Shown one piece after another: positions 495 through 19,456 of a stretch of 64,000 nucleotides of DNA; position 1 is the stretch's first letter, and each line of letters begins with the position of its first letter. The DNA is taken from contig CDLV01000006.1 of NCBI GenBank assembly GCA_001244265.2, positions 806,001-870,000 on the forward strand, in the 5' to 3' direction. Under the pieces are notes generated by a model. It made no database searches. It saw only the letters and a program-made list of their open reading frames with translations, and was not told where the DNA came from. The position numbers and the translations under genes were made by a program. The stretch is from Microbotryum violaceum. Taxonomy: Eukaryota.

Positions 495-3400
495 ATGTCG
501 TACCACTACAACAGCGACCACTATGACGACTACCACTATCAGTCGACCAGTGCCGCAACTTTCCCCTCGGCGTCATCGTCGTCGTCCTCATACCTCCACA
601 CGAAGCAGCCTCCGTCGGCCGACGCACCCCTCGGACAGGCACCGCCTCCTCAAGCTTTAGCTCCACCAGGTCGGTCTCAGGTGCACTGCCAACACTCCGC
701 AAGCAAGGGTTGCTTTATACCGTCTCACACGGCTGATTGACAACTCGACTGCAGACCTCGAGGTACCGTTCTATGCACGTACGTGCGCGGCTCACGGCGA
801 AGAGCTTCGACACCGTCATTCCATCACCGCCGCTCCGTCTCAGCCGTTGCGCCCGTCCCAGACCCAGTACGACCACAACCCAGCTGGATACGACCCATCC
901 CATCCCCACCCTGGGTATGCACGCTACCAAGCTCCTGTTCCACCGTCACAACCTTATGCCATAGCCGCCGCTGCCTCGGCTCCTCGCCCTCCTCCTGGCG
1001 CCTATGCCCCTCTTCCGCCGACAGCTCCTCCTCGGCCGCCTCTTCCACCCGGTGGACACACCTCCTCATCCTCCTTACCCGTCAACTCGGTCTCTGCCCC
1101 GTTCTACCCGACCGTGGATGACTACACCGCTCGGCTCGAGGCGTTGCAGATGGGCAATCTCTTCCCCGACGATTCGTCGTCGTCCCCGGCCTCGTCGCCT
1201 TCAACCGGTCTGAGACCCCCACCTCCGCGCCCGTTGACAATATCGCCCCCTTCCAACTCGAGCCTCAATCACCACCGCCGCAGCAGCCCAACGACCCCTG
1301 ATCAACTCTACCCTCGCGACCAACGCGACAGCTTCACCAGCGGATTCATCGCCATGTACGGCGGCTCGCCCTCGCCGCAGAATTCGCCCCTGCCGTTCAC
1401 CAACAACCTCTCGTCGTCTTCTGTGCAGTACCAAGCCCAGCAGCGCTACTCGAGCGATTCGTTGACTGCCGCGTCGCCGATTCATACGTCACATCTGTCC
1501 AACGCCACCGCCATGGCTATGCCGAGTCCGCTCTCGCCTCCGGTTCGATCGCAAGCCGCCGCATCGCTCGCCGCCGTCACGGGGATATCGAATGCTGCTT
1601 CCACCTCGGCTTCAGCTTCAAACAATTCTTACCCGTCCCATGCCTCGCATCCCAGCACGGACTCGTCCGCGACCCGGTCCTCGAACGGATCCCTGCCGCG
1701 ACCGCTCCCGCACGAAGATTCGTTCTATTCGGTCGCGTCCTCGACATGGTCACCGGGGCAGCCGGGACATCAACATAATTCGAATCACAGTTCGACTTAT
1801 AGCTCCCACCATACGAGGAAGTCGCCACCCCCACAGCATCAACCGTACGAAGCTGCCCCGCTCAAACCTTCGAGACCACCCCATTTCGTCCACTCCTCCG
1901 CCTCGTCATCCAGCGGGCGGTTCATCACGGACGGGCAGACGTTGGACTATTCGAACCCTCCGAGGTCGGGTAGCCTGGAGCACTTTCGAAGTACGGCCAG
2001 TCCGACCGAATGGGCGAGAGCCAAGGCCATCACCGGCGGCGAGTCCCAGTTCGAGCAGCAGCAACGCTCGCAGCGGTCTGATCAGCCGCCGAGTATTCCT
2101 GCGACCGTCGTGGCGTCTACGCCTTTTTCGAGCTCTTTCTCAGTGCCTGGCTTGACTGCGATTGATGAGTCGGAATCTCCAAATCCGGCATTCACCGTTT
2201 CGCCCGTCGAGTCGCCGAACATGACGACCCACCCGGTCTTTTCCAGAGCACCCAAGCGGTCCATGACGGGCTCGTCCTTGTCGCCGCATGTGCCCTCGTC
2301 GCTTTCGCCTTCCACCTCTTACCATAGTCTTAAACGAACGACCTCGGGTGCTTCGACCTCGACGCAGGCGACGACGATGTATGCGACCCAGATCCCGTTC
2401 TCGTTTTCCGCCGCCGATCTGCCCGAGTTCCTCAACCCCGCTCTTCTGTCCCACCTCGCCGTCTTTCTACGCGACTACATCCCCCGATCGACGCACACCA
2501 AGTCGAATTGTGAATATCCTCGCTCCTTCACCTCGCAGGACATCATCAACACTTTGCAACGCGCACTCGTCGCCGGTCCGTGCCCAGTCGACCCGCATGA
2601 CCGCAAGCTCGCGCTCTCGATCGCTCGATCGTTGCACGAGTCGCTGTGGTTCCATGAAGTCGATTGGTCAGACGCACCTATTCGGGACGCACCGGCTCCG
2701 ACTTTGAACGAGGCCAACTCGACGAATCATCGGCTCTACCAATTCGACGACGACGAGCGATCGGAAGTGCACGTGTCAAAGGATGAGACGCAGGACGAGG
2801 ACGAGACGCCCAAGGGGGTCTTGACGACTTTGACGGGGTGTTATTCGCCGTTCTGTAATCAGTTGGAGGATGAGGAGACGAGGTACAGGTGCTATGCTTA
2901 TGATTGTTCGAATCGGGCAAAGGTCAGTTTTGTGAGAGTAATCGTATGAGACGACGAGAGCTGACCAGCCTTTCATTACGATGCAACTAGCGTGGGACTG
3001 CGCTGCAGAGGCAGACGAGTTCAATCTCAACCTTAACCGTGGCCGAGACGGTCAGTTCCTACCTACAGTCTTGCGGGAACGAGTCACGTACTGACTTGGT
3101 CGGTGACATCAAGCAGATTGATAAACCGCCAGAAAACTGGGTCACCTCGGTCCCGGCCTCGGTCGTCAGCTCCATGTCAAAGCATGAGATAGAGTACCAG
3201 AACAGGGTCTACGAGTTGATCAAGGGAGAGGCCGAGTATTATCATGATCTTGAGCTCCTCGATTCGGTACGTCTTGGCATGCGGTGAGTGCAGCAATTTG
3301 CTACCGGGAAAACTCACACCATAGTATTCGCAGCTCTTTGCTCAACCTTTACGACAAGCAAACCCGTCTATCCTCCAACCCGCCTCCCGAGTCGAGCCCT

Positions 3401-5896
3401 TCATCGCTGAAGTTCTCCAAAACGTCGGTGAGGTCCGCAAACACTCCGGCGCTTTCCTCGACGCTTTGCAAGAGCGGCAGAAGCAGGCCCATGTCTTCCA
3501 TGGCGTCGGCAGGATCATGCTTTCGTTCGCTGTGGACTGGTCACCGGATTATACGAAGTTTGCGGTCAATTTCCCGTTCGCGGATGCGGCTGTCAGGGAG
3601 GAGATGGGGAGGAACCCCAAGTTCAGGGACTTTTTGGGGGTGAGTCGTCGTTTGGCATGCCACTCTGGAGAGTCTACAAAGACTAACGGTACACACCTCC
3701 ATCAGCAATTCCGCTATCGACCCGAAACGCACCGCCACGACTTTCACCACTTTCACACCCGAGCGACGATCCGCGGCGTGCGCTACCTCCTTCTCCTTAA
3801 GGACATCCTCAAACTATCCCAAGAAGACGATCCTGATCGTCCCTACGTACTCGAAACGATCAAAGTCATCGAACAGCAAGCCGCGGAAGCGAATAAACTG
3901 ATCAAAGTTACCGAAACCAAAGTCGCTTTGAGGGAATACGATCGTGACTTGGTCCCCAAGAGGGAAGGGGAGAATTTGAGTTACCTCGAGTTGAAGAATG
4001 AACAGGAACGCCAGTACTTTGGGAGTGTTAAGGTGCTCAAGCGCGTTGATGGGGCTGTTGGGACGGAGTGGAGCGAGTGTTGGTTGGTCTTGTTTGATCA
4101 TTATCGTGAGCTCTTTCCGGGTCGGGAACGTGTTGCGAGAGTCTGGGGAGCTGATTGATGGAATGAATGCTCCGCAGTGGTGACGACCAAGATGCCGCGG
4201 GAAAAGGAGGGCAGGAAGCGATACGTCATGACTCGACGGGTGAGCTCAGCTTGGACCAGTAGAATGGTTCCCGGGGTGACATAACTGATGAAACTTTCCA
4301 TCTGCACCTCATCGTAGCCCGTGCCGCTCGACCTGATCCAGCTCAAGACGACGAGCTTCAGTGATCCGCCTCAGCAACGGACATCGGGCTTCCATCTACG
4401 CAGTGCTCGAGCAGGCACTCCTGGATACGCCGATTCGCCTTCCAACTCGAGCTCGACTTCCCTCGTCTAGTAAGTCCGGGTGTGCGCGATGGTGTGCTTC
4501 GCGTGTTAATCATCGTTGCGTTTCTTTCTGCAGCCCCATCCACTTTTATCAGATGGGCCGGTACGACGGTCAAGTCTACTTTTACGTCGAATCGCAAGCG
4601 ACCCGACTGGAGTGGGAGCATAAATTCCGGGAAGCCGTCGATCTGCGAGCGCAACGACAGTCGATCTCCAAGGTCATTCGAATGGACCTTCTCGCCGAAA
4701 CGACGTTTGGAGCGGCCCATGTCGTCGGCTCCCTGGATGCGATGACGAGCCATAACGCCGTGGGCAAACCGACATGTTCCGTTCCGCTGGATCTGGCGGA
4801 TGGTCAGGCCTTGGTCATTATCGGGTGCGCGGAAGGGCTGTTCATTGGGTACCGGGGTCGACCCAAGTCGCTGCGTCAGGTTGTCGCCCTCTCTGGGATC
4901 ACGCAATGCGCCGTACTGCCCGAGTACGGCTTTGTCCTCGTCCTGGCGAACAAGGTCCTCATCGCCTATTCACTCGAAGCGCTCATCCCGTCCGGTACAA
5001 CCTCGAACAGCTCCGTCTCCCGGGCACCGCAGCGTCTGAGTGGTCAGAAGGATGTATCATTTTTCCGCGTCGGCAAGATCGGGACCGAAGCGCCCAAGAC
5101 GTTGATCATCTACGCCAAGAAGGGCGGCGTCAAGGAATCCATCTTCAAGGCTTTGGAACCGGTCAATCACTCGCATAAAGGTGGCGGTGGCGGTGCGGGT
5201 CACAAGTTGTTCAGCTTTGGTTCGAGCAAGACCGAGAGCTTCAAGTCGTACAAGGACTTCTTCATCCCTGCACTCGTGAGCGGCTTGCAGTTCCATCGGA
5301 GCAAACTGGCTTTGATTGGTTCGCGCGGCGTCGAGATCATGGACCTCGAGGACATGAAAACAATGACGGTGCCTGCCTTCCCCTCGTCTCGCCACGACCG
5401 ATCGCTCGTCTCGCTCGCCGAACGATGCGAAAAGGCCCAAGCGCTCGGCATGTTTCGCTTGCAAGGCGATCGGTTTCTCCTCGCCTACACCGATTTCGCC
5501 TTCCACGTCACTCGCCACGGTTTGCCGATCGAGGGGTTCACCATCGAGTGGGAGTCCAAACCCGAGAGTGTCGCGTTTCTTTCGCCCTACATCTTCGCCT
5601 TCTCACCCACCATCGTCGAGATTCGCCACGCCCTCACGGGCCAACTCGCTCAATTCATTACAGGGTCCCAAGTCGCTCTTATTTACGACGGCACAGCAAT
5701 TCCGTCCTCCCCTTCGAACGATTCTCTTCCTCGAGAATCGCAATCTTCCGACGAAGTTGCTCCCGCGGAGAAGAGGCTTCATTTCAGTCTCAAGTCGGGT
5801 CATTATCATCTCGTTTACGAGATTAATGTCTTGCCGGGCTTTCAGAGCATTCCCGAGGCGGAGACGCCTTCGTTCCCCAGTGGATTTGGGGCGTAG
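495..5896 (+). CDS. ROM2: Rho1 guanine-nucleotide exchange factor (Rom2/Rgf1 family), multi-exon
   Basis: Pro/Ser-rich N-terminus, DEP-like segment (RSFTSQDII..LWFHEVDW, GVLTTLTGCYSPFC), DH (YELIKGEAEYYHDL, RYLLLLKDILK), PH (WLVLFDHY, PVPLDL) and CNH domain (ITQCAVLPEYGFVLVLANKVL, IEWESKPESVAFLSPYI). Span includes introns; start ATG chosen by eye. Confidence 0.88.
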
Positions 5897-8377: not shown

Positions 8378-8970
8378 TTTTTTTTTTTGTATGAAACTCA
8401 TCGCTAATTTGCAAGACGAGAAACCCCCCTACGGAACTAAAGGTGATGTTGCCCAGTATGCACGTTGATGACCACAACCGCCGCTCGATGCGTTGTAACT
8501 AGCAGAACAGACCAACCCGATACATCCGAGTTCAAGTCCCCCCACCCACGGTTGCTCCCTCCCAGAGACGAATGAAAGGAAGATTGAAGATAATACACGG
8601 GGAATCTGGAAACGATGGAAGAAATGTTGGTGGTGGTACATGTGTTGTACAGGTGAATCCGATCATAGTTGTACAGTTGAACCTTCTTCGATCTTTTGAC
8701 TTCAGACCCCCCTGAGACTGCCATACTCCTTGAGGCCCTTAATTCTTTGAGACGCGTCGAACAAGGCCTCCGATGGCACAAACATCCCGCTCAATCCGAA
8801 TGATTCACGTGGTCCAAAAGGGGGAATGTAACCCCCTGCGACCGCAGCAATCACATACCCCTTGTACCCGTCTGCGCTGGATCTCCACCGCGGAGTCTAA
8901 CCCCCTTTTCGGTTACCAAAGTCTGCCCCCCTCGCGACCGCACGACCCCAGATCACCCCCATTTCAATGA
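8378..8970 (-). mobile_element. 3' fragment of a poly(A)-tailed retroelement, family C copy 1
   Basis: T11 at 8378-8388. 8389-8897 is near-identical to 19468-19976. A short reading frame ending ..KGLKEYGSLRGV* precedes ~320 nt of UTR. Right boundary approximate. Confidence 0.75.
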
Positions 8971-8974
8971 CTGC

Positions 8975-9058
8975 AACTATTTAGATTCAATTAATAATAT
9001 TATGAATGAATTAAATAGACCCTTAACTTGAATTACTCCTAAAGGTATTAAAATTTAT
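8975..9058 (+). pseudogene. Fragment of plasmid-type single-subunit RNA polymerase
   Basis: NYLDSINNIMNELNRPLT(TGA=W)ITPKGIKIY resembles the conserved P.xW.TP.G motif of T7-like RNA polymerases. Confidence 0.6.
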
Positions 9059-9216
9059 GAAAATAGACATGATTCATTCTATAACTTTGTATACTCGCCT
9101 TTTTTTTGCGCGCAAAAAAAGCAGATAAATTTCCAGTTATATATTATGCTTATTATCCCTAATTTTTTTTTTATTTTTTTTTTTCTTTCCTTTTTTATAA
9201 AAACAGAAAACTGGTT

Positions 9217-9330
9217 GACCAATAGCTTCTAAAGCAGAAGCATATGTTGAAAATGGACCTCCTGAAACTAATTTACCATTATCATACACTCAAACTTTTC
9301 TATTGACTAATAAACGAGCTATTCTCTGAG
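9217..9330 (-). pseudogene. Fragment of GIY-YIG homing endonuclease C-terminal (NUMOD1-like) region
   Basis: Translates with TGA=W to RKVWVYDNGKLVSGGPFSTYASALEAIG. Confidence 0.5.
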
Positions 9331-9570
9331 ATAAAACTAAGTGTGTGTTTTTAAGAAAAACAGACAAAAAAAAGAAAATAAAAAACTGTTCGAAGTGATG
9401 GGATGTAAAGAATGGGAAATAGAGTCTCCGACGGTCTTAACCAGAAGTATAGTTGTTGACCGTTTTCATCAGTGTCGCCTAAAGATTAGACTATACGATA
9501 TTATGAAAGTATATATTATTACATTGGACTAAAGACCTAATTTGTATAACATAGATGAGACCATAAATGG

Positions 9571-9760
9571 TTTTCTTTATCATTCTCGTATAAATCTAAA
9601 CATTCTTTAATAATAGATTCACTAAATGACACTTTATTATCATGACTTAATTTATCATTACCAAAAGTATTAGCCATGTAATGGTAAACATAACATAAAC
9701 CCTCGGAATTAATTTCTTCAGACTCATTATACTGGATAGAAAAATTATAAAAATTACTTA
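9571..9760 (-). pseudogene. Fragment of plasmid-type single-subunit RNA polymerase
   Basis: YVYHYMANTFGNDKLSHDNKV matches the ANxFG.DKL motif of phage/mitochondrial RNA polymerases. Confidence 0.7.
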
Positions 9761-9819
9761 GTTTGGATAGCTTTTTTACATATATTATCATTAACTATAC
9801 ATAATATTACATTAATTCT

Positions 9820-10090
9820 GTTTTCTTGCATAATCTAGGTATGTTTGATAGATATGTTTTAATACCAGCGTTATACGATTACCTTAATAGTCTTAAAGAT
9901 ATCAAAGTGTTAATTGATGCTGATCATAAATACATTCTTGTTAAAGTAGCTGATAGTAAAGTTAAAATTGAGTTTAAAGACTCATTACGAATTTTACCTA
10001 TGTCCTTAGATCGTTTAGCTTCAACTTACAATATTAAAGGTAAAACTGAAGCTTATGATCCTAAGTGACAAAACTTAGATTTTCATTAAC
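9820..10090 (+). pseudogene. Fragment of protein-primed family B DNA polymerase (linear mitochondrial plasmid type)
   Basis: ExoII-like HNLGMFD and FKDSLRILPMSLDRLA motifs. Frame continues through TGA=W at 10066. Confidence 0.85.
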
Positions 10091-10787
10091 TCCCTGGGAC
10101 TGAAGATTGAATTAGGTTTAAGTTGTACTCTGTCCTGCTTTTTGATTATCTGTCCTGCTTTTTGATTAATCAAAAAAGACAAAAAGAGGAAAAAAAGACA
10201 AAACAGAAAAGGAGGAGGAGTAGTTCCTTCAAATTAATCTTATTTATTTATACATCCTCGCGCGCTTGATGAACGGAATAAACAAAGCTCATTATCCAAT
10301 CATATAAGCGCCTTTTTCATCTTTGATGAAAAGCAGCGGGGCTGTTTTTATAAAAAAGGGCGGGTGCATAAGGCACACTCTGAAATACTCCTGCACCTTT
10401 CTAGCCCAATTAAAATTCTACTATATGCTGGAAAGACACTCTCAAGCTACGACCTTGAGCATCAATAAATAAATATTGAGTGAACCTATTAAACCTAAAG
10501 AAATTGAAAGTTTTAAAAATATAGTAGAGAATCAATTTGCGCCTACAGATGAATGAAAAAATGCTCATCTAATGAATGTTGAGTTATCTTCTGTATGTTC
10601 TGTTGAAAACTTTTCTAAAAATCTAAGTAAAGAATTGTCTAGTTTCTTAAGTGTAGTTTCAGATAATATTCCTGTTTCCTCTTTTGGTTAGTTATAAAAT
10701 GTAGAATGTAAAACAACAATGAGGAATAATACATATTCTTCTTTTAAAATAGCTTTTAACAATAGTAGAAAGGGGGGACTTATTAAT

Positions 10788-10867
10788 TAATAAAATTTAA
10801 TTATGAGGAAACTTATCATAAGTGAGAATAGTCCTGTAGCTTCTGATAGAGCGAATCCTAGAATAGC
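10788..10867 (-). pseudogene. atp9: atp9 (ATP synthase subunit c) C-terminal fragment
   Basis: Translates to AILGFALSEATGLFSLMISFL, the conserved second helix of subunit c. Confidence 0.9.
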
Positions 10868-11459
10868 CTAAGAAAATACCTCCCGACTTGATTTTCTGTA
10901 CTGTTCCAAAATAAGAGAGAAGTAAAGACTATATCATAGACAGAAGTTTATCTATTTTTGGCAAAAGAAGAGGTTAAACTATATCCAACCAATTAATCCT
11001 ATAACATTTCAATTTTATATCTTCTTTTGTATAACCTATTCCTATTTCGAATAAATACAGAGTCGTCGCAATTTAATACTGCCTTAGCTGCAGTAATTGA
11101 GGGATATTCCACAACATTAGGTGGCGTAGCTAAGGTATCTGTCACTCTAATAGGCACTCACCGTTTTTTAGAACCGAATTTAATAGTATTATTTATAAGC
11201 TTTTTGCTAAGGCAAAAAATAAAAATAAAAAATATGCTGTTTTTGTCCAGGACAAAAAAATAAAAATAAGCGCCTTTTTCATCTTTAGTTTTTTTAGACA
11301 AAAAAGGAAAAGCAGCGGGGCTGCTTTTTGCTAAAGCAAAAAAGACGAAGCGCCCAGCTCGGCTGGGCGAGGGCGACGAAAAGAAAAAGAGTCGGGCTAA
11401 GATAAAAAAATCTAAAGTGATGGGAACAAGAGTCGGGCGAGTACAATAATTGTTTACTT

Positions 11460-11685
11460 ATCTACGTAATATGCAAGTACTTCAATTCCGCAGTTTTTGA
11501 CATTATTTTTATGGTTTAACATAATTTTTTTAACTGCTAAAATACAACTTAAGAATTGTACCGGTTCCGCAGCTTTATTCAATCATAAATTTTTGAATTT
11601 TTCTTTATCATTCTCGTATAAATCTAAACATTCTTTAATAATAGATTCACTAAATGACACTTTATTATCATGACTTAATTTATCA
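11460..11685 (-). pseudogene. Second fragment of plasmid-type RNA polymerase, overlapping the 9571-9760 fragment in source sequence
   Basis: DKLSHDNKVSFSESIIKECLDLYENDKEKFKNL(TGA=W)LNKAAEPVQFLSCILAVK, including an EPxQFLxC motif. 11599-11685 repeats 9571-9657. Confidence 0.75.
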
Positions 11686-12489
11686 CTGCGAAACAGGCCT
11701 ACTTCGCACAAAAACACACAATCCAGAGATTTCCGGGGAAAGTCATGGAGCATGTGACAGTCCATTGGACACGCCTCGGTCTGCAGCGCGGGCGGGTGGC
11801 CGTCAACACCGGCGCGCAGCTGGAGACAAGAGGCGGGGTATACCTTCCGCAGGGGCCTCGCTTCCCTGCGGCGTACTCCCAATCTCGGAACGCACACTCG
11901 AGTCCCGTTGTACGTGCAGGTGGTTCCCAATCACCGCAGATACTGGGGAAAGAAGGAGCATGAGGCCCACGACGGTGATGTCATTGGGTGGGACCTCGCT
12001 CGAGTGTGGATGTGTATGGCGGTTCGGTACCCGAGTCACCCGCCGCGCGGCCGCGACTCCGAGCGAGCAGCAAAGCAAGGAGAGGCGAGCCACGCAGGCA
12101 GTTTGTGCCGGCCTTGAACAGGAGATCACGGAGTCGCTCGACCGAAAGAGAAAACAGACCCGGCCCTTGAGAGGAGTGGAAAACTCACGGCGTAGTCCAG
12201 GAGAGGGCCGAGGGGATCCGCTTTCGCTGTGTGTCATCGTGATGTGGCAGAAGCTCGAACCAAGGGCGACGATGCTCGCCGGCGCAAAGAACTCGAGGCT
12301 CCTGGGGAGTACGGAAGCCTATGATGAGGAATGGCAAAAAGAGCGAGAGAAAACAGGTTCAGTATGCTGGCGTTTTTGGGAGACAGTGGAGAAATTGAGA
12401 AAGAGGGAAAGGGGACTTGTGATTATTTTTATTTTTATTTTTTTTATTTTTTTGGTTTTGGTTTGGGTAGGGAGGGAGCGCCGTCTACT

Positions 12490-15400
12490 TCATCGTGCCA
12501 GTCTGAGCTCCAACCTCTCCTTCAGTCCGGCCATCTCCTTGTCCATGCTCGACATCGCTCTGGCGTGGCGATGGAGATCCCAGCGTCGGTTGCTGAGAGT
12601 GTCAAGCGCCAGCGCAATGAAGGCGCGGGTTGGGCGCTTTTTCGAAGCCGGAAGGCGAGCGCGCAGTCGAGGGAGGCCGTGCTCGATCTGAAGTGCCGTG
12701 TAGTCGAGGTCGAGGATCGACACGACCCCCAGCGCGTCGCAGAGAATGGACCTAGCTGCTTGCCAAAACTGAGAAGAGTCAGGGCAATCATGCCAAAAGT
12801 GAGTAAAGTCATCCTCCACCCCTGCCAGGCTGCATGCCTGCACAAGGCAGCAGGCCGAGTCGCCATGCCGCTGCACAAACTGGCGCTTCCGCGTTGGCGT
12901 GAAGTGGTACGCCAGCTTGAAGTGCACCTCGCGCTCGCGGGCCGTGGCGGGCCCGGTGTTGAACCACCCCCAGAAGAGTCGCCTTTCTTTGGGTGTGGCG
13001 AGTGATCCAGGGCGTTGTGTGTCGTCGAAACGTCGATGGTTGATGACGCGTCGAAGTCGCGCAATGGTGTAAGGTCTGTCCAAGCTCAACATTCTCCACT
13101 GATCAGCACGCAAGGGGGCGGAGGGGAGGGAAAGTTTTTGATCAGGCATGCCGACCGGAGTCGCTCTGGGCAAGATGTGCTCGAGGGGACCGCCGGCCCG
13201 GGCTCCAGGTGCTCCAACGACACGAATGACGGGTGGTCGACGTGCGAGGACGGGAACAGGAGGCGGAAGCGGCGGGATGAAGCGATCGCCTGCGACCTGG
13301 ATCCACGCCTGGACTTGATCGCGCTTCCATTGCCACAGGTTGGACAGCTCCGAGCCGTCGCCTTGGGGATGCTTCTCAGGGGTCCAGGGCACCGTTGGAG
13401 CTGCGGGGTATTCGGCTCGCGCATAGATGTCAGCGATGGTGCGTTCGAAACTGAAAAGCTTCGCCAAACGCTTATCCTGCTCCGAGAACACCCGCGAGTC
13501 ATGCAGACCAGGTTGGAGGGGAGAAAGAGAGAGAAAATTGGAGACCGAAAGTTTGGCAGGATCGACGACGGCAGGGTAGCGTTCAGCGACCGAGAGCACC
13601 GCTCGCCAGCGGGGATGTAGCTCCCGGGGTGCGTCGGCGTTCCTCCACGTCCACAGATCCGTAGCAAAGTCAAAGGTTGGAAGCGCTCGCCGGATGGAAC
13701 TCCGAGCCAGCTCGCCCCAAATCGCAGTTGACCCGCCGGCCAGCACGTCCCAAATCCGTACCGAGACTGAATCCACCACATCTTGGATGCTCACGACGCT
13801 GAGACCACCTCGCGCCCGTGCCGTGAAGACGACCGATTGCTTGTAGTCGCTGCGCCGCGGGCCTCCCTTCACAAAGTCAGCAAGCTTGCGCTCGATCGAC
13901 TTGATCACGTCGGATGGCGGGATGTCGGCGGAGAGAGAGTGCAGCACCTTGGAGATGCCGTAGCGGTTAAGATAGAAAGCCCGGGTATGGTGCGTCATCC
14001 ATCGGTCGCGCACCGATAGAATCACTCGATCAACCCTTCGCTCAAGATCATGGAATCCCAGCCTGTTGTTGCCGTCAGGCGCAAACTGGAGACCGATCCA
14101 GGGAAGAGACTCGTCCGGTGCCACGAACGACAGTTTGGACAAGTCCGCGCGATCCCACAACGTCGCGCCCAATGGCATCACCACAGTTTTGTCGGTGTTT
14201 AGACGTCCGTTCGTCGCGAGTCGCCAATCCCGAGCTAACGCCTCGAGCGAAGCAATAGCTTCCGGCCCAGCAACAGCGACGACGGCGTCATCCGCGAACG
14301 CCAAATTGGTGATGCATCGAGTCTGCGGACGATGAGCCAGCTCCGGAAGAGTGATAGTCAGCGCAATGTTGCGTCGACTGAGAGAATCAAGGAAGGGTTG
14401 GAATACCACATCCCAGACAGAAGAAGAGAGAGGATCGCCCTGGCCAAGACCGCACAGGAGTCGCACCGTCTCGGTGAGGAAACCGTTGACAATGTACCGC
14501 GCTGTGGACGTCTCGCCGTTGTAGAGCATCCGCAAGACGCGCTGGAAAGGTTCCGGCGCGCCGAGAGCCTCAAACACCGCAAAGACCCAATCGTGCTCGA
14601 CCATGTCGTAAGCCGAGCTCTGATCCAGGGAGAGGAGCGCTGCTGTCGGGAACTCTGCCCCACGACCCCTAATCTCATCGATCAGGAGCCGCAGATGCAA
14701 AGCCGCGTCCGCTGGTCTTCGCCCCTTGACGAACCCATGCTGTCCGGCCGGAAGAACATCGGGGAGGATCCGGTTCAGACGAGCCACGTAGACCTTGGTG
14801 AAGATCTTGTAGTCGCATTCCCGCAAGGTGATCGGACGATACGATTTGAGGTCGCACCGTGCTGCACCAGGTTTGTTGTGTTTGAACAAGAGGCGCACAT
14901 TGGCCTGGCTCTGTTGTGGAGTAAGGGAGCCTCGAGTAATCAGCTCGTTGTAGGCTCGAGTCAAGAGAGGGGCCCAAAGCAGGGGGCAGGCTCGATACAT
15001 CTCATAGGGGACCCCTGAAGGACCCGGAGATCGACCTTCGTGCGTGGTTCGAATCGCTGCGAGCACCTCGGCCTCGCTGATGGGCTCGGCCAGAATGTCG
15101 ACGTGCGAATTCGAGAAGCGCCGAAGGAAGCGAGCGTCGGAAAGCGGGTCGTCACAAGGTCTTGCTGATCTGATGGGTCCCAAGAGCTCATCCCGCATCG
15201 TCACGACCTGTTCCGGATCCTTCGCTTCGACAAGGTAGTGCTGCTGGAAATGAGAATGGGTGTGTTCGAGCGCGCGCTCAATGTCAGTGGTGAGCTCGCC
15301 ATCAGCGAGCCGGATACTCTGAAACTTCACATCGCGGGACCGAGCAGCCAGTTTGGCATGTACCGGACGACTGAGACGTTCCTCGGATGCAATCTCGGGA

Positions 15401-16530
15401 ACGTGCGCCCTGATCCGGGACTGCCTTGCTCGCTCGTTCACAAGCTTGGAGAGAGCGTCGTGGGTGTTCGTCCAGTCGATAATATCGAAGGGGCTTAGCA
15501 CCCGACGAGACTCAATGTCCTGCAGTCGAGATACCAGCATCATCTCGAGGGCGTTGCGCTCCCGAAACAGACGCCGAGACAGCTCGAGAGCTTGGACCCG
15601 AGACTCCGAGAGTACGCGCTGAAGGTCCGCGACCGGATCCCCAGACGGCGCCTGCTCAAGGAGAGGAGTGACGGACTCCTTAAACTCGGCGTGTTTGAAG
15701 GTCGACGAGTTGATGCGGGTCAGAAAATGCGCCGCCTGGGGAAGGCAGAGCTCCTCTTCGACCTCGGCACCACTTGCGCGCAGCCTAAATGTGACCATAA
15801 CCGGTCGATGATCCGACATGGGTCGAGAGATATTGTACAGAGTAGAAGCAGAAACGATCCGTCGCTCGTGTCGCCGCTGCACCAGAACAAAGTCGATGCG
15901 CGCGCGCGAAATGAGCTGGCCATCCTTGCTGAGATGCGGGCGCGTGGTCGCCGGCGACAGTGGGTGCATGAGCCGAATGGCATCCGTGTACGCCCCGTCA
16001 AGCCGAGACATAAGCACAGGCCAGTGGTGGGTGTTCGGGCGGTCCACCTGTTGCGCTCGATCCACCGCGGGAATAGGGCAGTCGTTCAGATCGCCCGCGA
16101 TGAACCGAATGTGAGAGGAGACGGTCGCCCGAAAGTGAAGGGAGGTGAAGAAGAGGAGGCGCTCGGCGGGTTGAACCGGAGCGTAGATATTGTTGAGTTC
16201 GACGACGTCCGTCGAACCCCGCACATCGAAGGTGGTCACGAGTAAGCGCCCGCCAAGAGACTGACGCGTGCGACGATGACCACCGAGAAGAGGAGAAGAG
16301 CTTGGAATCAAAGTGAGGCAGTGTTGAGAAAAGTAGGCCTCGCCCTGGTGGGACTGGGCGTACTCGTGGCGTATGTGAGGTTGCCGTGCTTTAGGAACAT
16401 TATGTTCCTGGAGAAGGATAGCAGAAGGGGGAGGTGTGAGCGAAGTGATATACGAAAGAAGCCGACGACGTCGTTCAGGGGTATTGAAGCCCCTGTTGAC
16501 GTTCCAGGTCATGATGATGAAGTCAATCAT
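12490..16530 (-). CDS. LINE ORF2: APE-type endonuclease, reverse transcriptase and C-terminal Cys/His domain (1346 aa, uninterrupted)
   Basis: TWNVNRG, LLQE, GDLND, RIDF, SDH (endonuclease); SPGPSG, YRPITL, QHGF, GLGQGDPLS, FADD (RT); C..C...HFWHDC. Confidence 0.95.
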   Translation of the reverse strand: MIDFIIMTWNVNRGFNTPERRRRLLSYITSLTPPPSAILLQEHNVPKARQPHIRHEYAQSHQGEAYFSQHCLTLIPSSSPLLGGHRRTRQSLGGRLLVTTFDVRGSTDVVELNNIYAPVQPAERLLFFTSLHFRATVSSHIRFIAGDLNDCPIPAVDRAQQVDRPNTHHWPVLMSRLDGAYTDAIRLMHPLSPATTRPHLSKDGQLISRARIDFVLVQRRHERRIVSASTLYNISRPMSDHRPVMVTFRLRASGAEVEEELCLPQAAHFLTRINSSTFKHAEFKESVTPLLEQAPSGDPVADLQRVLSESRVQALELSRRLFRERNALEMMLVSRLQDIESRRVLSPFDIIDWTNTHDALSKLVNERARQSRIRAHVPEIASEERLSRPVHAKLAARSRDVKFQSIRLADGELTTDIERALEHTHSHFQQHYLVEAKDPEQVVTMRDELLGPIRSARPCDDPLSDARFLRRFSNSHVDILAEPISEAEVLAAIRTTHEGRSPGPSGVPYEMYRACPLLWAPLLTRAYNELITRGSLTPQQSQANVRLLFKHNKPGAARCDLKSYRPITLRECDYKIFTKVYVARLNRILPDVLPAGQHGFVKGRRPADAALHLRLLIDEIRGRGAEFPTAALLSLDQSSAYDMVEHDWVFAVFEALGAPEPFQRVLRMLYNGETSTARYIVNGFLTETVRLLCGLGQGDPLSSSVWDVVFQPFLDSLSRRNIALTITLPELAHRPQTRCITNLAFADDAVVAVAGPEAIASLEALARDWRLATNGRLNTDKTVVMPLGATLWDRADLSKLSFVAPDESLPWIGLQFAPDGNNRLGFHDLERRVDRVILSVRDRWMTHHTRAFYLNRYGISKVLHSLSADIPPSDVIKSIERKLADFVKGGPRRSDYKQSVVFTARARGGLSVVSIQDVVDSVSVRIWDVLAGGSTAIWGELARSSIRRALPTFDFATDLWTWRNADAPRELHPRWRAVLSVAERYPAVVDPAKLSVSNFLSLSPLQPGLHDSRVFSEQDKRLAKLFSFERTIADIYARAEYPAAPTVPWTPEKHPQGDGSELSNLWQWKRDQVQAWIQVAGDRFIPPLPPPVPVLARRPPVIRVVGAPGARAGGPLEHILPRATPVGMPDQKLSLPSAPLRADQWRMLSLDRPYTIARLRRVINHRRFDDTQRPGSLATPKERRLFWGWFNTGPATAREREVHFKLAYHFTPTRKRQFVQRHGDSACCLVQACSLAGVEDDFTHFWHDCPDSSQFWQAARSILCDALGVVSILDLDYTALQIEHGLPRLRARLPASKKRPTRAFIALALDTLSNRRWDLHRHARAMSSMDKEMAGLKERLELRLAR

Positions 16531-19343
16531 TACGATTGCGCCTTCGTTGCAGCAGCAGCTCCCTTGATGGACAACATAGGTCCGAATGTGGGTGAGGGGA
16601 GCGGGTCCGCAGCAGTCGATTCGTTCCAGTCCGATGTGCGCGCAACGCTGGTGAGACGCTGGATACGCTCGGACCGGCGAAGACCCTGGGAACTTCCTTT
16701 GTCCACCTCCTGCTTGGGCTCGGGCTCGGGATCAAACACTGGACCTGGAGACGGCGAAGGCATCCAACCGGTTACAGACGGGGTGCGGTCCAACTCGGTG
16801 ATCTCATCGTACAGACCAGCATCCTGTTTGCGCTCGCGGTCCGACACACGATTCATCCAGTCGTCGGGAAGGCCGTCCATATCAAGCTGATGGTGACTGG
16901 CCGATCGGGACCGCGTCAGCTCAGGGGTCGTCGAAACAACCACAGGCACAGTGCCCGTCTCGGCCGACTGCGATTCCCCTTCTTCCGCGTCACTCGTCTC
17001 CGTGTGTTCCTCCTGGCTCCCCTCCGCTCCGCGGTCCTACAGATCCGACAGATCCGAAGGCTCCAACGGCGGCACCTCCTGCTGTTGTTCCAGCTGTGCC
17101 TCGACTACGCTCATCGCGTCCTCGTCGTCCTCGAGAGCCTGAGCGGGCTCCTCCTGCGCCTCTTCGGCCACGTCGCCGGCCAGACTTGCGAATGGGTTCG
17201 CGGCGACGATGAAACCGCGAGGGGCGGATGCTGTGGGTGTAGAGCTTTGTGAACGAGTGGGGTAGACTCGTGGTGAGTTGTTAGTGTCCCTTGAGGGAGA
17301 TGCGTTCTTCTTTGAACGCTTGAACGCGACAGGAGACATTGGGGGAGAGGGAGAGGCTACATCACTGCGTTGTTTTTGGGGGGTCGAGGTTTGCTCGATG
17401 TTGCTTTGGGGCTCGGCCTGGGGCCTTTGGTTGTTGTTTTTCTTCTGGGCGGCCTGCTGACGCTGGACCGCCTTTTGGACGCAGCTGTCGATGTGGCCTA
17501 CGAAGCCGCATCGGCGACAAGAAGCTTCGGACTCGAAGTCGTGTCGAAGTGGCGTGACTTGGGCGAGTCGTCCCCGGAGGTCGATCCTCGTCGGGAGAAT
17601 TTGTCGAAGCTGGGCTCCCTGATTCTTGAAGAGGTCGTCGTTGTCGAACCTGACGATGGCTGAGTAGTTGCCTCGAGCGACCAAATAGGAGTCCTGTACA
17701 ACGTGGAGGGGCTGCTGGAGTTGCAGCAAAGAGCAGCTGTGGCCGCCGGCGGTGATCTGTGCGACGAGACCTTGCAGCTTCGTCCAAAGGAGGTCGGTCG
17801 TGTAATCGACGTCGGGGCTGATCACGAAACGCAACTCGACGACATTCTTGACGAAAGCCAGGCGTTTGCGGACTTGGACAGGCGAGCGTTTCCACTCGAT
17901 CTTGGTCGCCGCTTCATGCACCTTGTCAAGAGCCTCCACGCTGGCGCATCGCACGACGAACTTGAAACGGGTGTTACCGTTGATCTGGACCGCCTCCGGG
18001 GTGACCCCATGGATGACCGGTGCATACTTGGCTAGCTCGGGTGGGAGGACCACTCCGGCGGGAAGGTTGAAGCATAGGGATGTGTCCGGCGATAACGTGC
18101 GGAGCACCTTGGAGTACGCGTCCGCCTTCTCGCGCTCACTAGCGACACCTTTCGACCCCCCAAAAACAACGCAGTGATGTAGCCTCTCCCTCTCCCCAAT
18201 GTCTCCTGTCGCGTTCAAGCGTTCAAAGAAGAACGCATCTCCCTCAAGGGACACTAACAACTCACCACGAGTCTACCCCACTCGTTCACAAAGCTCTACA
18301 CCCACAGCATCCGCCCCTCGCGGTTTCATCGTCGCCGCGAACCCATTCGCAAGTCTGGCCGGCGACGTGGCCGAAGAGGCGCAGGAGGAGCCCGCTCAGG
18401 CTCTCGAGGACGACGAGGACGCGATGAGCGTAGTCGAGGCACAGCTGGAACAACAGCAGGAGGTGCCGCCGTTGGAGCCTTCGGATCTGTCGGATCTGTA
18501 GGACCGCGGAGCGGAGGGGAGCCAGGAGGAACACACGGAGACGAGTGACGCGGAAGAAGGGGAATCGCAGTCGGCCGAGACGGGCACTGTGCCTGTGGTT
18601 GTTTCGACGACCCCTGAGCTGACGCGGTCCCGATCGGCCAGTCACCATCAGCTTGATATGGACGGCCTTCCCGACGACTGGATGAATCGTGTGTCGGACC
18701 GCGAGCGCAAACAGGATGCTGGTCTGTACGATGAGATCACCGAGTTGGACCGCACCCCGTCTGTAACCGGTTGGATGCCTTCGCCGTCTCCAGGTCCAGT
18801 GTTTGATCCCGAGCCCGAGCCCAAGCAGGAGGTGGACAAAGGAAGTTCCCAGGGTCTTCGCCGGTCCGAGCGTATCCAGCGTCTCACCAGCGTTGCGCGC
18901 ACATCGGACTGGAACGAATCGACTGCTGCGGACCCGCTCCCCTCACCCACATTCGGACCTATGTTGTCCATCAAGGGAGCTGCTGCTGCAACGAAGGCGC
19001 AATCGTAATGATTGACTTCATCATCATGACCTGGAACGTCAACAGGGGCTTCAATACCCCTGAACGACGTCGTCGGCTTCTTTCGTATATCACTTCGCTC
19101 ACACCTCCCCCTTCTGCTATCCTTCTCCAGGAACATAATGTTCCTAAAGCACGGCAACCTCACATACGCCACGAGTACGCCCAGTCCCACCAGGGCGAGG
19201 CCTACTTTTCGGTACAGCGCTAGGCCGGGGTTCGCTGGTCCCTCGGCGGCATCGGCCTCCGCCCCCGCGTCACCACGTGGTTGTCCCGTCGCTGCCGGAT
19301 CCGGAGGGCCGCGGCCCGGATCAGGCGGTGCCTGGTCAGACAT
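16530..19343 (-). pseudogene. Family A ORF1 (nucleic-acid chaperone), disrupted
   Basis: N-terminus at 19343-19211, then the inverted duplication, then body from 18151 with knuckle CRRCGFVGHIDSC. In-frame TAG at 17037-17039. Terminal TAA overlaps the ORF2 ATG. Confidence 0.8.
18152..19210 (+). repeat. Inverted duplication of 16328-17387
   Basis: Reverse complement of 16328-17387, matching by eye except for one base in a C-run. The ORF track gives mirror-image peptides. Confidence 0.95.
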
Positions 19344-19416
19344 CGGGTCGATAGCTGGTGTAGCAGTTGATGTATTCGATGTATTGACGTTTGCCGAGGT
19401 AGAGTAGCGTGATTGG

Positions 19417-19456
19417 GATGAAAGATGAAAGATGAAAGATGAAAGATGAAAGATGA
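19417..19456. repeat. (GATGAAA)5 GATGA heptamer repeat at the 5' end of element A
   Basis: Read directly. Confidence 0.95.

What the first reader, a model, noticed from the sequence alone, without database searches (positions are those of the whole stretch)
8971..11685. Shattered mitochondrial patchwork embedded inside the retroelement train
Seen: 2.7 kb of short AT-rich pieces (roughly 50-300 bp) in both orientations. They include atp9, a group I intron core at ~9422-9500, a NUMOD1-like piece, polB and RNA polymerase. The block joins the 5' end of C1 to the tail-less 3'UTR of A. Known: mosaic NUMTs arise by end-joining capture at double-strand breaks. Inference: a break at this hotspot, perhaps from the LINE endonuclease, was patched with organellar DNA and removed A's tail. 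Mixed orientation argues against pure mRNA template jumping.
Basis: partly seen in the sequence, partly recalled or inferred. Interest (0 to 1): 0.72.

Follow-up and report, generated by a model that had tools for sequence, protein, structure and literature searches.

The report
Mosaic mitochondrial insert inside one retrotransposon
A 2.7-kb patchwork of at least a dozen scraps of mitochondrial and mitochondrial-plasmid DNA was stitched into a chromosome break in the middle of one jumping-gene copy of an anther-smut fungus; it is real, but it is an ordinary kind of DNA-repair scar that this genome carries at many other places.

Summary
The block is a real complex NUMT: 2,706 bp, 30% GC, at least 12 pieces (16 in my fuller map, 36-445 bp) in both orientations. 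polB, RNA polymerase, atp9 and a GIY-YIG endonuclease end are confirmed; the group I intron and NUMOD1 labels are not. Low-depth contigs of public runs cross several internal joints, so it is no assembly artefact. The break is not in the T-run that this LINE family favours, and 0 of 26 other NUMT loci lie beside these LINE families. Best reading: end-joining of shredded organellar DNA into a chance double-strand break in an already inserted LINE copy (4-nt and 1-nt microhomology at the ends, a 1-nt filler inside). One lead of interest: the block mixes pieces that today are high-copy only in some of the runs laid, so it records an older or mixed mitochondrial type. The scan's notes that I saw held no such NUMT on other DNA.

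The parts
8378..8978 (-).
   Evidence: Continuous with 11685 onward in other copies; tails shown
8975..8978 (.). Left junction: 4-nt microhomology shared by host and donor
   Evidence: Donor contigs of X1, X15, X5 align from 8975 with a loose end before it; host empty site
8975..9059 (.). Piece 1: plasmid-type DNA, same donor contig as the RNA polymerase pieces but in opposite orientation
   Evidence: Loose ends at 8975 and 9059; opposite-strand joint 8975 to 11492 in X7
9057..9199 (.). Piece 2: mitochondrial non-coding DNA with palindromic A/T repeat; up to 3-nt overlap with piece 1; right end uncertain
   Evidence: X5 record 16 covers 9057-9155; related repeat in L023
9200..9345 (-). Piece 3: short open frame that looks like a homing-endonuclease C-terminus (NUMOD1-like by recall only); seen only on low-depth contigs
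9346..9570 (-). Piece 4: mitochondrial non-coding piece with group-IB-like motifs (recalled, no Rfam match); also captured at L004
   Evidence: X7 record 23 at depth 518; L004 99.5% over 191 bp, L029; Rfam none
9571..9731 (-). Piece 5: plasmid-type single-subunit RNA polymerase
   Evidence: PF00940; 93% to M. lychnidis-dioicae RNA polymerase P0152; contigs
9732..9732 (.). One filler base that belongs to neither neighbouring donor
   Evidence: Donor 5 departs after 9731, donor 6 begins at 9733
9733..9779 (.). Piece 6: 47-bp mitochondrial piece, also captured at L026
9780..10131 (+). Piece 7: plasmid-type DNA polymerase B, with a four-codon gap and a stop near its end; 77% amino-acid identity to YP_007475385.1
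   Evidence: 9740-10042 lies on low-depth contigs in 4 of 4 runs
10129..10303 (.). Pieces 8-9: mitochondrial palindromic repeats; a perfect 20-bp tandem duplication (10129-10168) starts on the polB joint
   Evidence: Repeat D12; L028; inner boundary near 10235 uncertain
10304..10481 (+). Piece 10: mitochondrial repeat plus intron-like piece (group I P-element motif by recall; no Rfam match)
   Evidence: X1 record 4 depth 1946, X5, X7; L035, L046 end at 10481
10481..10674 (+). Piece 11: 65-codon open frame of unknown family at plasmid-type depth in X1, X15, X5 but low depth in X7
   Evidence: L014
10675..10754 (.). Pieces 12-13: short AT-rich pieces; boundaries rest on one other NUMT (L038) only
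10755..11199 (-). Piece 14: C-terminus of a GIY-YIG endonuclease (11002-11199) followed by an atp9 3' end (10790-10867); colinear with a mitochondrial-depth contig in X7
   Evidence: P0151 98%; PF00137; X7 record 27 depth 583; L002 99.0% over 311 bp
11199..11491 (.). Piece 15: mitochondrial palindromic repeats and intergenic DNA, the most often recaptured part (L044, L043, L046, L028, L037, L040)
11492..11685 (-). Piece 16: RNA polymerase again; 11599-11684 repeats 9571-9656, so one donor region was used twice; 1-nt microhomology at 11685
   Evidence: Repeat D1; PF00940; P0152; X15 record 11
11685..12489 (-). Rest of the 3'UTR of LINE copy A
12490..16731 (-). ORF2 of LINE copy A, 1,413 codons open, endonuclease + reverse transcriptase
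16732..19456 (-). ORF1 region and 5' end of copy A; about 215 bp of it are replaced by an inverted 1,060-bp copy (18152-19210) of 16328-17387

Best explanation
A complex NUMT. After this L1-like LINE copy had inserted, a chance double-strand break opened in its 3'UTR, 600 bp from the tail. A pool of shredded mitochondrial DNA and mitochondrial plasmid-type DNA (pieces of about 40-450 bp) was joined end to end in random order and orientation by non-homologous or microhomology-mediated end joining and sealed the break without loss of host sequence. Shown: organellar donors, mosaic build, clean site inside one element, short microhomologies and a filler base. Inferred: that the LINE came first and was already chromosomal, that all pieces arrived in one event, and which repair enzymes acted. 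The insert has no function; it was not copied further by the LINE.
For: Empty site: 32 of 32 other loci with the left flank carry the right flank directly after it with a 3-nt overlap (which scored 40 of 65 candidates); 9 of 9 junctions read show the same empty site. The overlap is accounted for by donor microhomology: 4 nt at the left end (chance about 1.3% for one joint) and 1 nt at the right (repeat D1). Inner joints: up to 3-nt overlap at 9057-9059, 1-nt filler at 9732, none at 9570/9571, 1 nt at 10481 and 11199, a 20-bp duplication on the polB joint. Donors: named M. lychnidis-dioicae polymerases and GIY-YIG protein. Contigs at depth 84-111 in X1 match 9200-9600, 9740-10042 and 10749-11373 with no differences and cross inner joints, beside donor contigs at 1,900-4,300. 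26 other AT-rich organelle-like inserts were found; overlaps among 19 of these loci are short (48 overlaps, median 55.5 bp, longest 311). The same features are described for NUMTs in yeast (PMC11372161, passages) and generally (PMC2820518, passages).
Against: No read or contig that I was shown links the block to its LINE flanks (one search lists 32 pieces and hides 326); the link rests on the assembly and on the exact fit to the empty site. No mitochondrial assembly was at hand, so the piece count is a lower bound and some breakpoints at palindromic repeats may be mitochondrial polymorphism, not joints. X1 or X15 may be the source of the assembly. Twelve or more pieces exceeds the two to four seen in yeast amplicon assays, so several rounds of insertion cannot be excluded.
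Confidence: 0.83

Rival explanations
1. One reading: the LINE endonuclease cut at a hotspot between two elements, and the patch removed A's tail.
For: The block does lie in a LINE train; L1 endonuclease nicking was proposed, as speculation, for mammalian NUMTs near retrotransposons (PMC3467031, passages). The same copy carries a second rearrangement at 18152-19210, so the locus has been broken more than once.
Against: The tail is intact and no base is missing. The site has no A/T run over 3 nt within 15 nt, whereas 4 of 6 truncated 5' ends examined, and the 5' end of copy A, abut a T-run. 0 of 26 other NUMT loci have family A or B beside them; 1 of 26 lies next to a distant LINE reverse transcriptase.
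Confidence: 0.06
2. The LINE reverse transcriptase jumped onto organellar RNA or DNA during insertion and came back to its own RNA.
For: The block is inside a LINE, 600 nt from where reverse transcription starts; this family often shows truncations and inversions.
Against: It would need 12 or more switches and a return to the very base it left. Pieces are of both senses and include non-coding repeats; one donor region appears twice. Similar mosaics sit in Helitron, Ty3/gypsy, copia and non-TE surroundings. In yeast no spliced mitochondrial inserts were seen (PMC11372161, passage).
Confidence: 0.04
3. The mosaic grew in steps: several insertions at one fragile site, or one longer NUMT broken up later.
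For: Many pieces; a tandem duplication and a twice-used donor region; the polB piece carries a gap and a stop while other pieces are 98-100% like their donors.
Against: No nuclear DNA lies between the pieces, both outer joints fit one break, and neighbours come from distant donors in mixed orientation. Concatenation before insertion is the explanation suggested in PMC2820518 (passage).
Confidence: 0.06
4. Assembly artefact: mitochondrial reads mis-joined into a repeat.
For: No long read was seen; the flanks are a multi-copy repeat.
Against: Low-depth contigs of independent short-read runs cross the joint at 9779/9780 in X1, X15, X5 and further joints in X1 and X15; the site fits the empty allele to the base.
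Confidence: 0.01

Closest known systems
Complex (multi-fragment) NUMTs captured at double-strand breaks in Saccharomyces cerevisiae by Lig4/Pol4 end joining (PMC11372161; passages read)
   Same: Piece sizes (22-492 bp there, 36-445 here), microhomology at joints, several mitochondrial pieces in one break, DNA not RNA as source.
   Different: Two to four pieces there (amplicon assay), at least 12 here; donors here include plasmid-type polymerase genes; natural, fixed in an assembly.
Complex numts and mosaic numins of plants and animals (PMC2820518, passages; PMC6215612, abstract only)
   Same: Non-contiguous pieces in mixed orientation, short microhomology, little or no host deletion, two organellar sources in one insert.
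   Different: The second source here is mitochondrial plasmid-type DNA, not plastid DNA.
609-bp NUMT in AGO1 of Cryptococcus neoformans (bioRxiv 10.64898/2026.09.15.751489; abstract and one results section read)
   Same: Basidiomycete NUMT with 4-bp and 2-bp junction microhomology.
   Different: One fragment, in a gene, with a phenotype; here a mosaic in a dead LINE copy with no sign of function.
NUMTs near retrotransposons in mammals (PMC3467031; passages read)
   Same: NUMT arriving after the retrotransposon.
   Different: There NUMTs are enriched beside, and rare inside, retrotransposons (10 of 557); here it is inside one, and no enrichment beside these LINEs was found.

Membership tests
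Complex NUMT | Pieces homologous to mitochondrial DNA | tested here: met
   Named M. lychnidis-dioicae proteins at 98%, 93% and 77% identity; donor contigs at about 20 times the depth of the block's own contigs
Complex NUMT | Lies in nuclear DNA | tested here: met
   In contig C4 inside a LINE copy; joint-crossing contigs at low depth; the outer joints were not seen in reads
Complex NUMT | Several non-colinear pieces, mixed orientation | tested here: met
   11 breakpoints with two or more lines of support; opposite-strand joints
Complex NUMT | End-joining marks: 0-4 nt microhomology, filler bases, little host loss | tested here: met
   4, 3, 1, 1, 1, 0 nt overlaps, one filler base, no host loss
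Complex NUMT | Full fragment map on the strain's own mitochondrial genome | not testable with these tools
   No mitochondrial contig matched in G000; metagenome scan found none
LINE-mediated insertion (target-primed reverse transcription) | Poly(A) tail on the insert and a target-site duplication | tested here: not met
   No tail; the 3-nt overlap is explained by donor microhomology
LINE-mediated insertion (target-primed reverse transcription) | Cut at the family's T-rich target | tested here: not met
   Longest A/T run within 15 nt is 3; compare
LINE-mediated insertion (target-primed reverse transcription) | Sense, spliced RNA-derived pieces | tested here: not met
   Both senses and non-coding pieces; splicing itself not tested
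Group I intron (piece 9346-9570) | Match to the group I core model | tested here: inconclusive
   No Rfam group I match; fold z -1.93; only a fragment is present and the motif likeness is recalled
Free mitochondrial linear plasmid as donor | Separate molecule with terminal inverted repeats, polB and RNA polymerase | tested here: inconclusive
   RNA polymerase contigs lie at about 2-3 times the depth of other mitochondrial contigs and read on past the end of P0152; ends not seen, a duplicated integrated copy is not excluded

The most novel reading that the evidence does not exclude
The block froze the mitochondrial DNA of two different parents. It holds pieces that are high-copy today only in run X7 (the intron-like piece and the GIY-YIG/atp9 piece), a piece that is high-copy only in X1, X15 and X5 (10481-10674), and a polB that is high-copy in none of the four. 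If these never coexisted in one mitochondrial type, the genome's many shattered NUMTs would be debris of mitochondria destroyed after mating (Microbotryum shows biased mitochondrial inheritance, PMC7312866 section 7.4), and would form a readable record of lost mitochondrial types, introns and plasmids.
Probability: 0.12. Interest if true: 0.6.

Novelty: new member of a known kind. Interest (0 to 1): 0.3.

Why it matters
As it stands it is a well-resolved but ordinary repair scar. It shows that Microbotryum captures finely shredded organellar DNA often (27 loci found from three seed sequences and one family search, about 20 kb in the 19 measured), which matters for mitochondrial variant calling and for gene prediction in these genomes, and which my searches did not find described for this genus (the library lacks most subscription papers). 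The pieces preserve optional mitochondrial elements that some present strains seem to lack, so such inserts can date intron and plasmid loss.

Tried and rejected
Rfam on the block and on the two intron-like pieces: no group I match. NUMOD1-like piece: nothing in Pfam or the protein collection (a 49-residue query is a weak search). A mitochondrial assembly could not be found: no such contig in G000, 0 matches in metagenome contigs, no polB relative in viral contigs. A palindromic motif as a genome-wide NUMT tag found one place only. 10043-10136 had no contig laid in any of the four runs: a hole, taken as no evidence. Idea that L002 and L004 are nuclear copies of this block: rejected, since each runs on into donor sequence beyond the block's breakpoint. 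Idea that the LINE spread its cargo: rejected, only this copy holds it. A formal test of NUMT enrichment in TEs was not possible: 6 of 18 loci scanned have a TE Pfam domain within 900 bp (100 of the 130 flank frames listed were scanned), but I have no TE map of this genome; published averages run from about 9% on autosomes to about 27% in non-recombining regions (my sums of figures in PMC10502011, passages). NUMT limits at other loci were read by eye. No supplements were opened; those of PMC10502011 or Microbotryum genome papers might list NUMTs.

Full report
Setting. The window is G000:C4:806001-870000, a 33.2-Mb, 20-contig genome. Earlier notes of this scan call it Microbotryum; the best protein matches of three pieces are named M. 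lychnidis-dioicae, which agrees.

The observation. 8979-11684 is 29.9% GC; no other stretch of that length in the window is below 49.1%. Read with NCBI table 4, it holds a DNA polymerase B piece (PF03175, E 1.5e-8), an RNA polymerase piece (PF00940, E 1.6e-5) and an atp9 3' end (PF00137, E 9e-4, under the cut-off). The polB piece spans 9820-10131, is 77% identical to YP_007475385.1 and has a four-codon gap and a stop. 11002-11199 is the C-terminus of a GIY-YIG protein at 98%. The two RNA polymerase pieces match P0152 at 93% and 92%, and the second reads on where P0152 ends. The group I intron and NUMOD1 labels got no support from Rfam, Pfam or homologue search; they rest on recalled motifs.

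How many pieces. No mitochondrial assembly was available, so I used two stand-ins: Logan contigs of four public runs laid on 8850-11810 (4 of the 21 runs listed), and other NUMTs of G000 as independent samples of the donor. Eleven inner breakpoints have two or more lines of support: 9057/9059, 9346, 9570/9571, 9731/9733, 9779/9780, about 10131, about 10304-10328, 10481, 10674, 11199 and 11491/11492. That gives at least 12 pieces; with four weaker boundaries, 16 pieces of 36-445 bp, median 154. Two joints inside single donor contigs connect distant parts of the block on opposite strands (8975 to 11492 in X7; 10481 to 10876 in X1, X5, X7), and 11599-11684 repeats 9571-9656, so order and orientation are scrambled and one donor region was used twice.

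It is not an artefact. In X1, contigs of mean depth 84, 92 and 111 match 9200-9600, 9740-10042 and 10749-11373 without a difference and cross inner joints, while donor contigs lie at about 1,900 and 4,100-4,300. X15 and X5 also cross 9779/9780 with 39-40 letters on the short side; X7's contigs reach only 30 letters over, one short of the tool's bridging rule, and carry a few differences. No listed piece spans the outer joints (32 shown, 326 hidden), and X1 or X15 may be the source of the assembly.

The 79 bases left of the block and the 76 bases right of it are adjacent, with a 3-nt overlap, at 32 of 32 other loci that hold the left flank (counted from its table; 40 of 65 candidates scored). 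Nine junctions read base by base show the empty site, and those copies share the 3' end at 8378 while their 5' ends vary, as truncated LINE copies do. So 8378-8978 is the last 600 bp of element A with its poly(A) tail, followed after the block by the rest of the 3'UTR and an open 1,413-codon endonuclease/reverse transcriptase frame. This copy's 3'UTR is 98.0-99.8% identical to eight others. The donor matches the host for 4 nt at the left joint (loose end at 8975) and 1 nt at the right, which accounts for the overlap: no host base is missing. A 4-nt overlap has a chance of about 1.3% at one joint. Inside there are overlaps of up to 3, 1, 1 and 0 nt, one filler base at 9732 and a 20-bp tandem duplication starting on the polB joint.

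No LINE hotspot. Searches seeded with this block, with PF03175 and with one other NUMT gave 26 further AT-rich organelle-like loci (lower bound). None of 18 has family A or B within 1 kb and none of 8 more within about 1.5 kb; one (L044) adjoins a distant LINE reverse transcriptase. Six of 18 have a TE domain nearby: Helitron twice, Ty3/gypsy twice, copia-type once, LINE-type once. Overlaps among 19 loci are short (48 overlaps, median 55.5 bp), and one of them (L043, about 3.15 kb) is longer than this block. Mosaic NUMTs are thus a habit of this genome, not of this LINE.

Mechanism. Shown: organellar donors, scrambling, end-joining marks, a clean site in one element. Inferred: a chance break in an already inserted copy, sealed by concatenated organellar debris in one event. 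This matches yeast experiments in which Lig4- and Pol4-dependent joining captures 22-492-bp mitochondrial pieces, nearly 4,000 of about 33,000 inserts having two to four pieces and none being spliced (PMC11372161, passages), and the general picture of 1-7-bp microhomology, little host loss and concatenation before insertion (PMC2820518, passages). The copy's ORF1 region is also broken by an inverted 1,060-bp duplication, which fits the fact that no other copy carries the block.

A lead. In one search the pieces 9349-9570 and 10789-11199 lie on contigs of depth 518 and 583 in X7 (other mitochondrial contig there: 602), but in X1, X15 and X5 their inner bins show only the low depth. The reverse holds for 10481-10674 (bin 10533-10631: depth 8.8 in X7, 5,022 in X1). 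The polB stretch 9840-10037 is low in all four. Contig depth is no copy number and the tool filters some records; my inference rests on the low mean word depth of contigs that do cover these pieces, which means their words are not shared with high-copy DNA. The simple reading is an ancestral mitochondrial type that held all these optional elements, with different losses since; both X7-type pieces were also captured independently at L002 and L004. The bolder reading is capture from two parental types after mating; biased mitochondrial inheritance is reported for this genus, mechanism unknown (PMC7312866, section 7.4 read). I could not tell these apart.

Novelty. Complex NUMTs are well known (also PMC6215612, abstract; a basidiomycete case with 4- and 2-bp microhomology in bioRxiv 10.64898/2026.09.15.751489, one section read). 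Searches for NUMT with Microbotryum (1 paper, on coffee rust by its listing), Microbotryum with mitochondrial linear plasmid (2 papers, listings only) and NUMT with linear plasmid in fungi (1 paper, listing only) showed no description for this genus; the library is incomplete. Verdict: a real, unusually fine-grained new member of a known kind; interest 0.3.

Noticed in passing
window 18152-19210: Inside LINE copy A an inverted copy (99.9%) of 16328-17387 replaces about 215 bp of the ORF1 region; other copies are continuous here. A second repair-like scar in the same element.
   Followed up: partly
L041 (C9:892368-892721), L023 about 2040-2115, L027 about 1070-1170: A second polB type, only 30% identical to YP_007475385.1 in L041, was captured at three loci: a further plasmid-type donor.
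   Followed up: partly
L043 3845-6994 (C2:2581844-2584993): A larger mosaic NUMT of about 3.15 kb inside a Ty3/gypsy element between integrase and chromodomain, with rRNA- and tRNA-like pieces by eye.
   Followed up: partly
L023 about 2596-2815: A GC-rich LTR-like repeat interrupts a mosaic NUMT, i.e. a transposon landed in the NUMT afterwards.
   Followed up: no
L044 2300-4180 (C5 about 2.140-2.142 Mb): Mosaic NUMT that also holds GC-rich nuclear-looking pieces and two long A-runs, beside a distant LINE reverse transcriptase.
   Followed up: no
L002 (C1:2699945) and L004 (C5:1402201): Contigs of X5 break where these second copies would make them break, while X1's run straight through: a hint that these two NUMTs differ between strains. 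Not tested.
   Followed up: no
window 10790-11199; L046 4297-4383: A GIY-YIG gene directly followed by an atp9 3' end, and a second atp9 3' end only 85% alike in L046: looks like a homing endonuclease that duplicates the end of atp9 (arrangement recalled from other fungi).
   Followed up: partly
L054/L055 (C10:1.220-1.226 Mb), L010, L051: Head-to-head or internally inverted copies of LINE family A recur elsewhere in the genome.
   Followed up: no
window 19417-19456: The 5' end of copy A carries a GATGAAA-type tandem repeat that is also seen at the 5' ends of other full-length copies.
   Followed up: no
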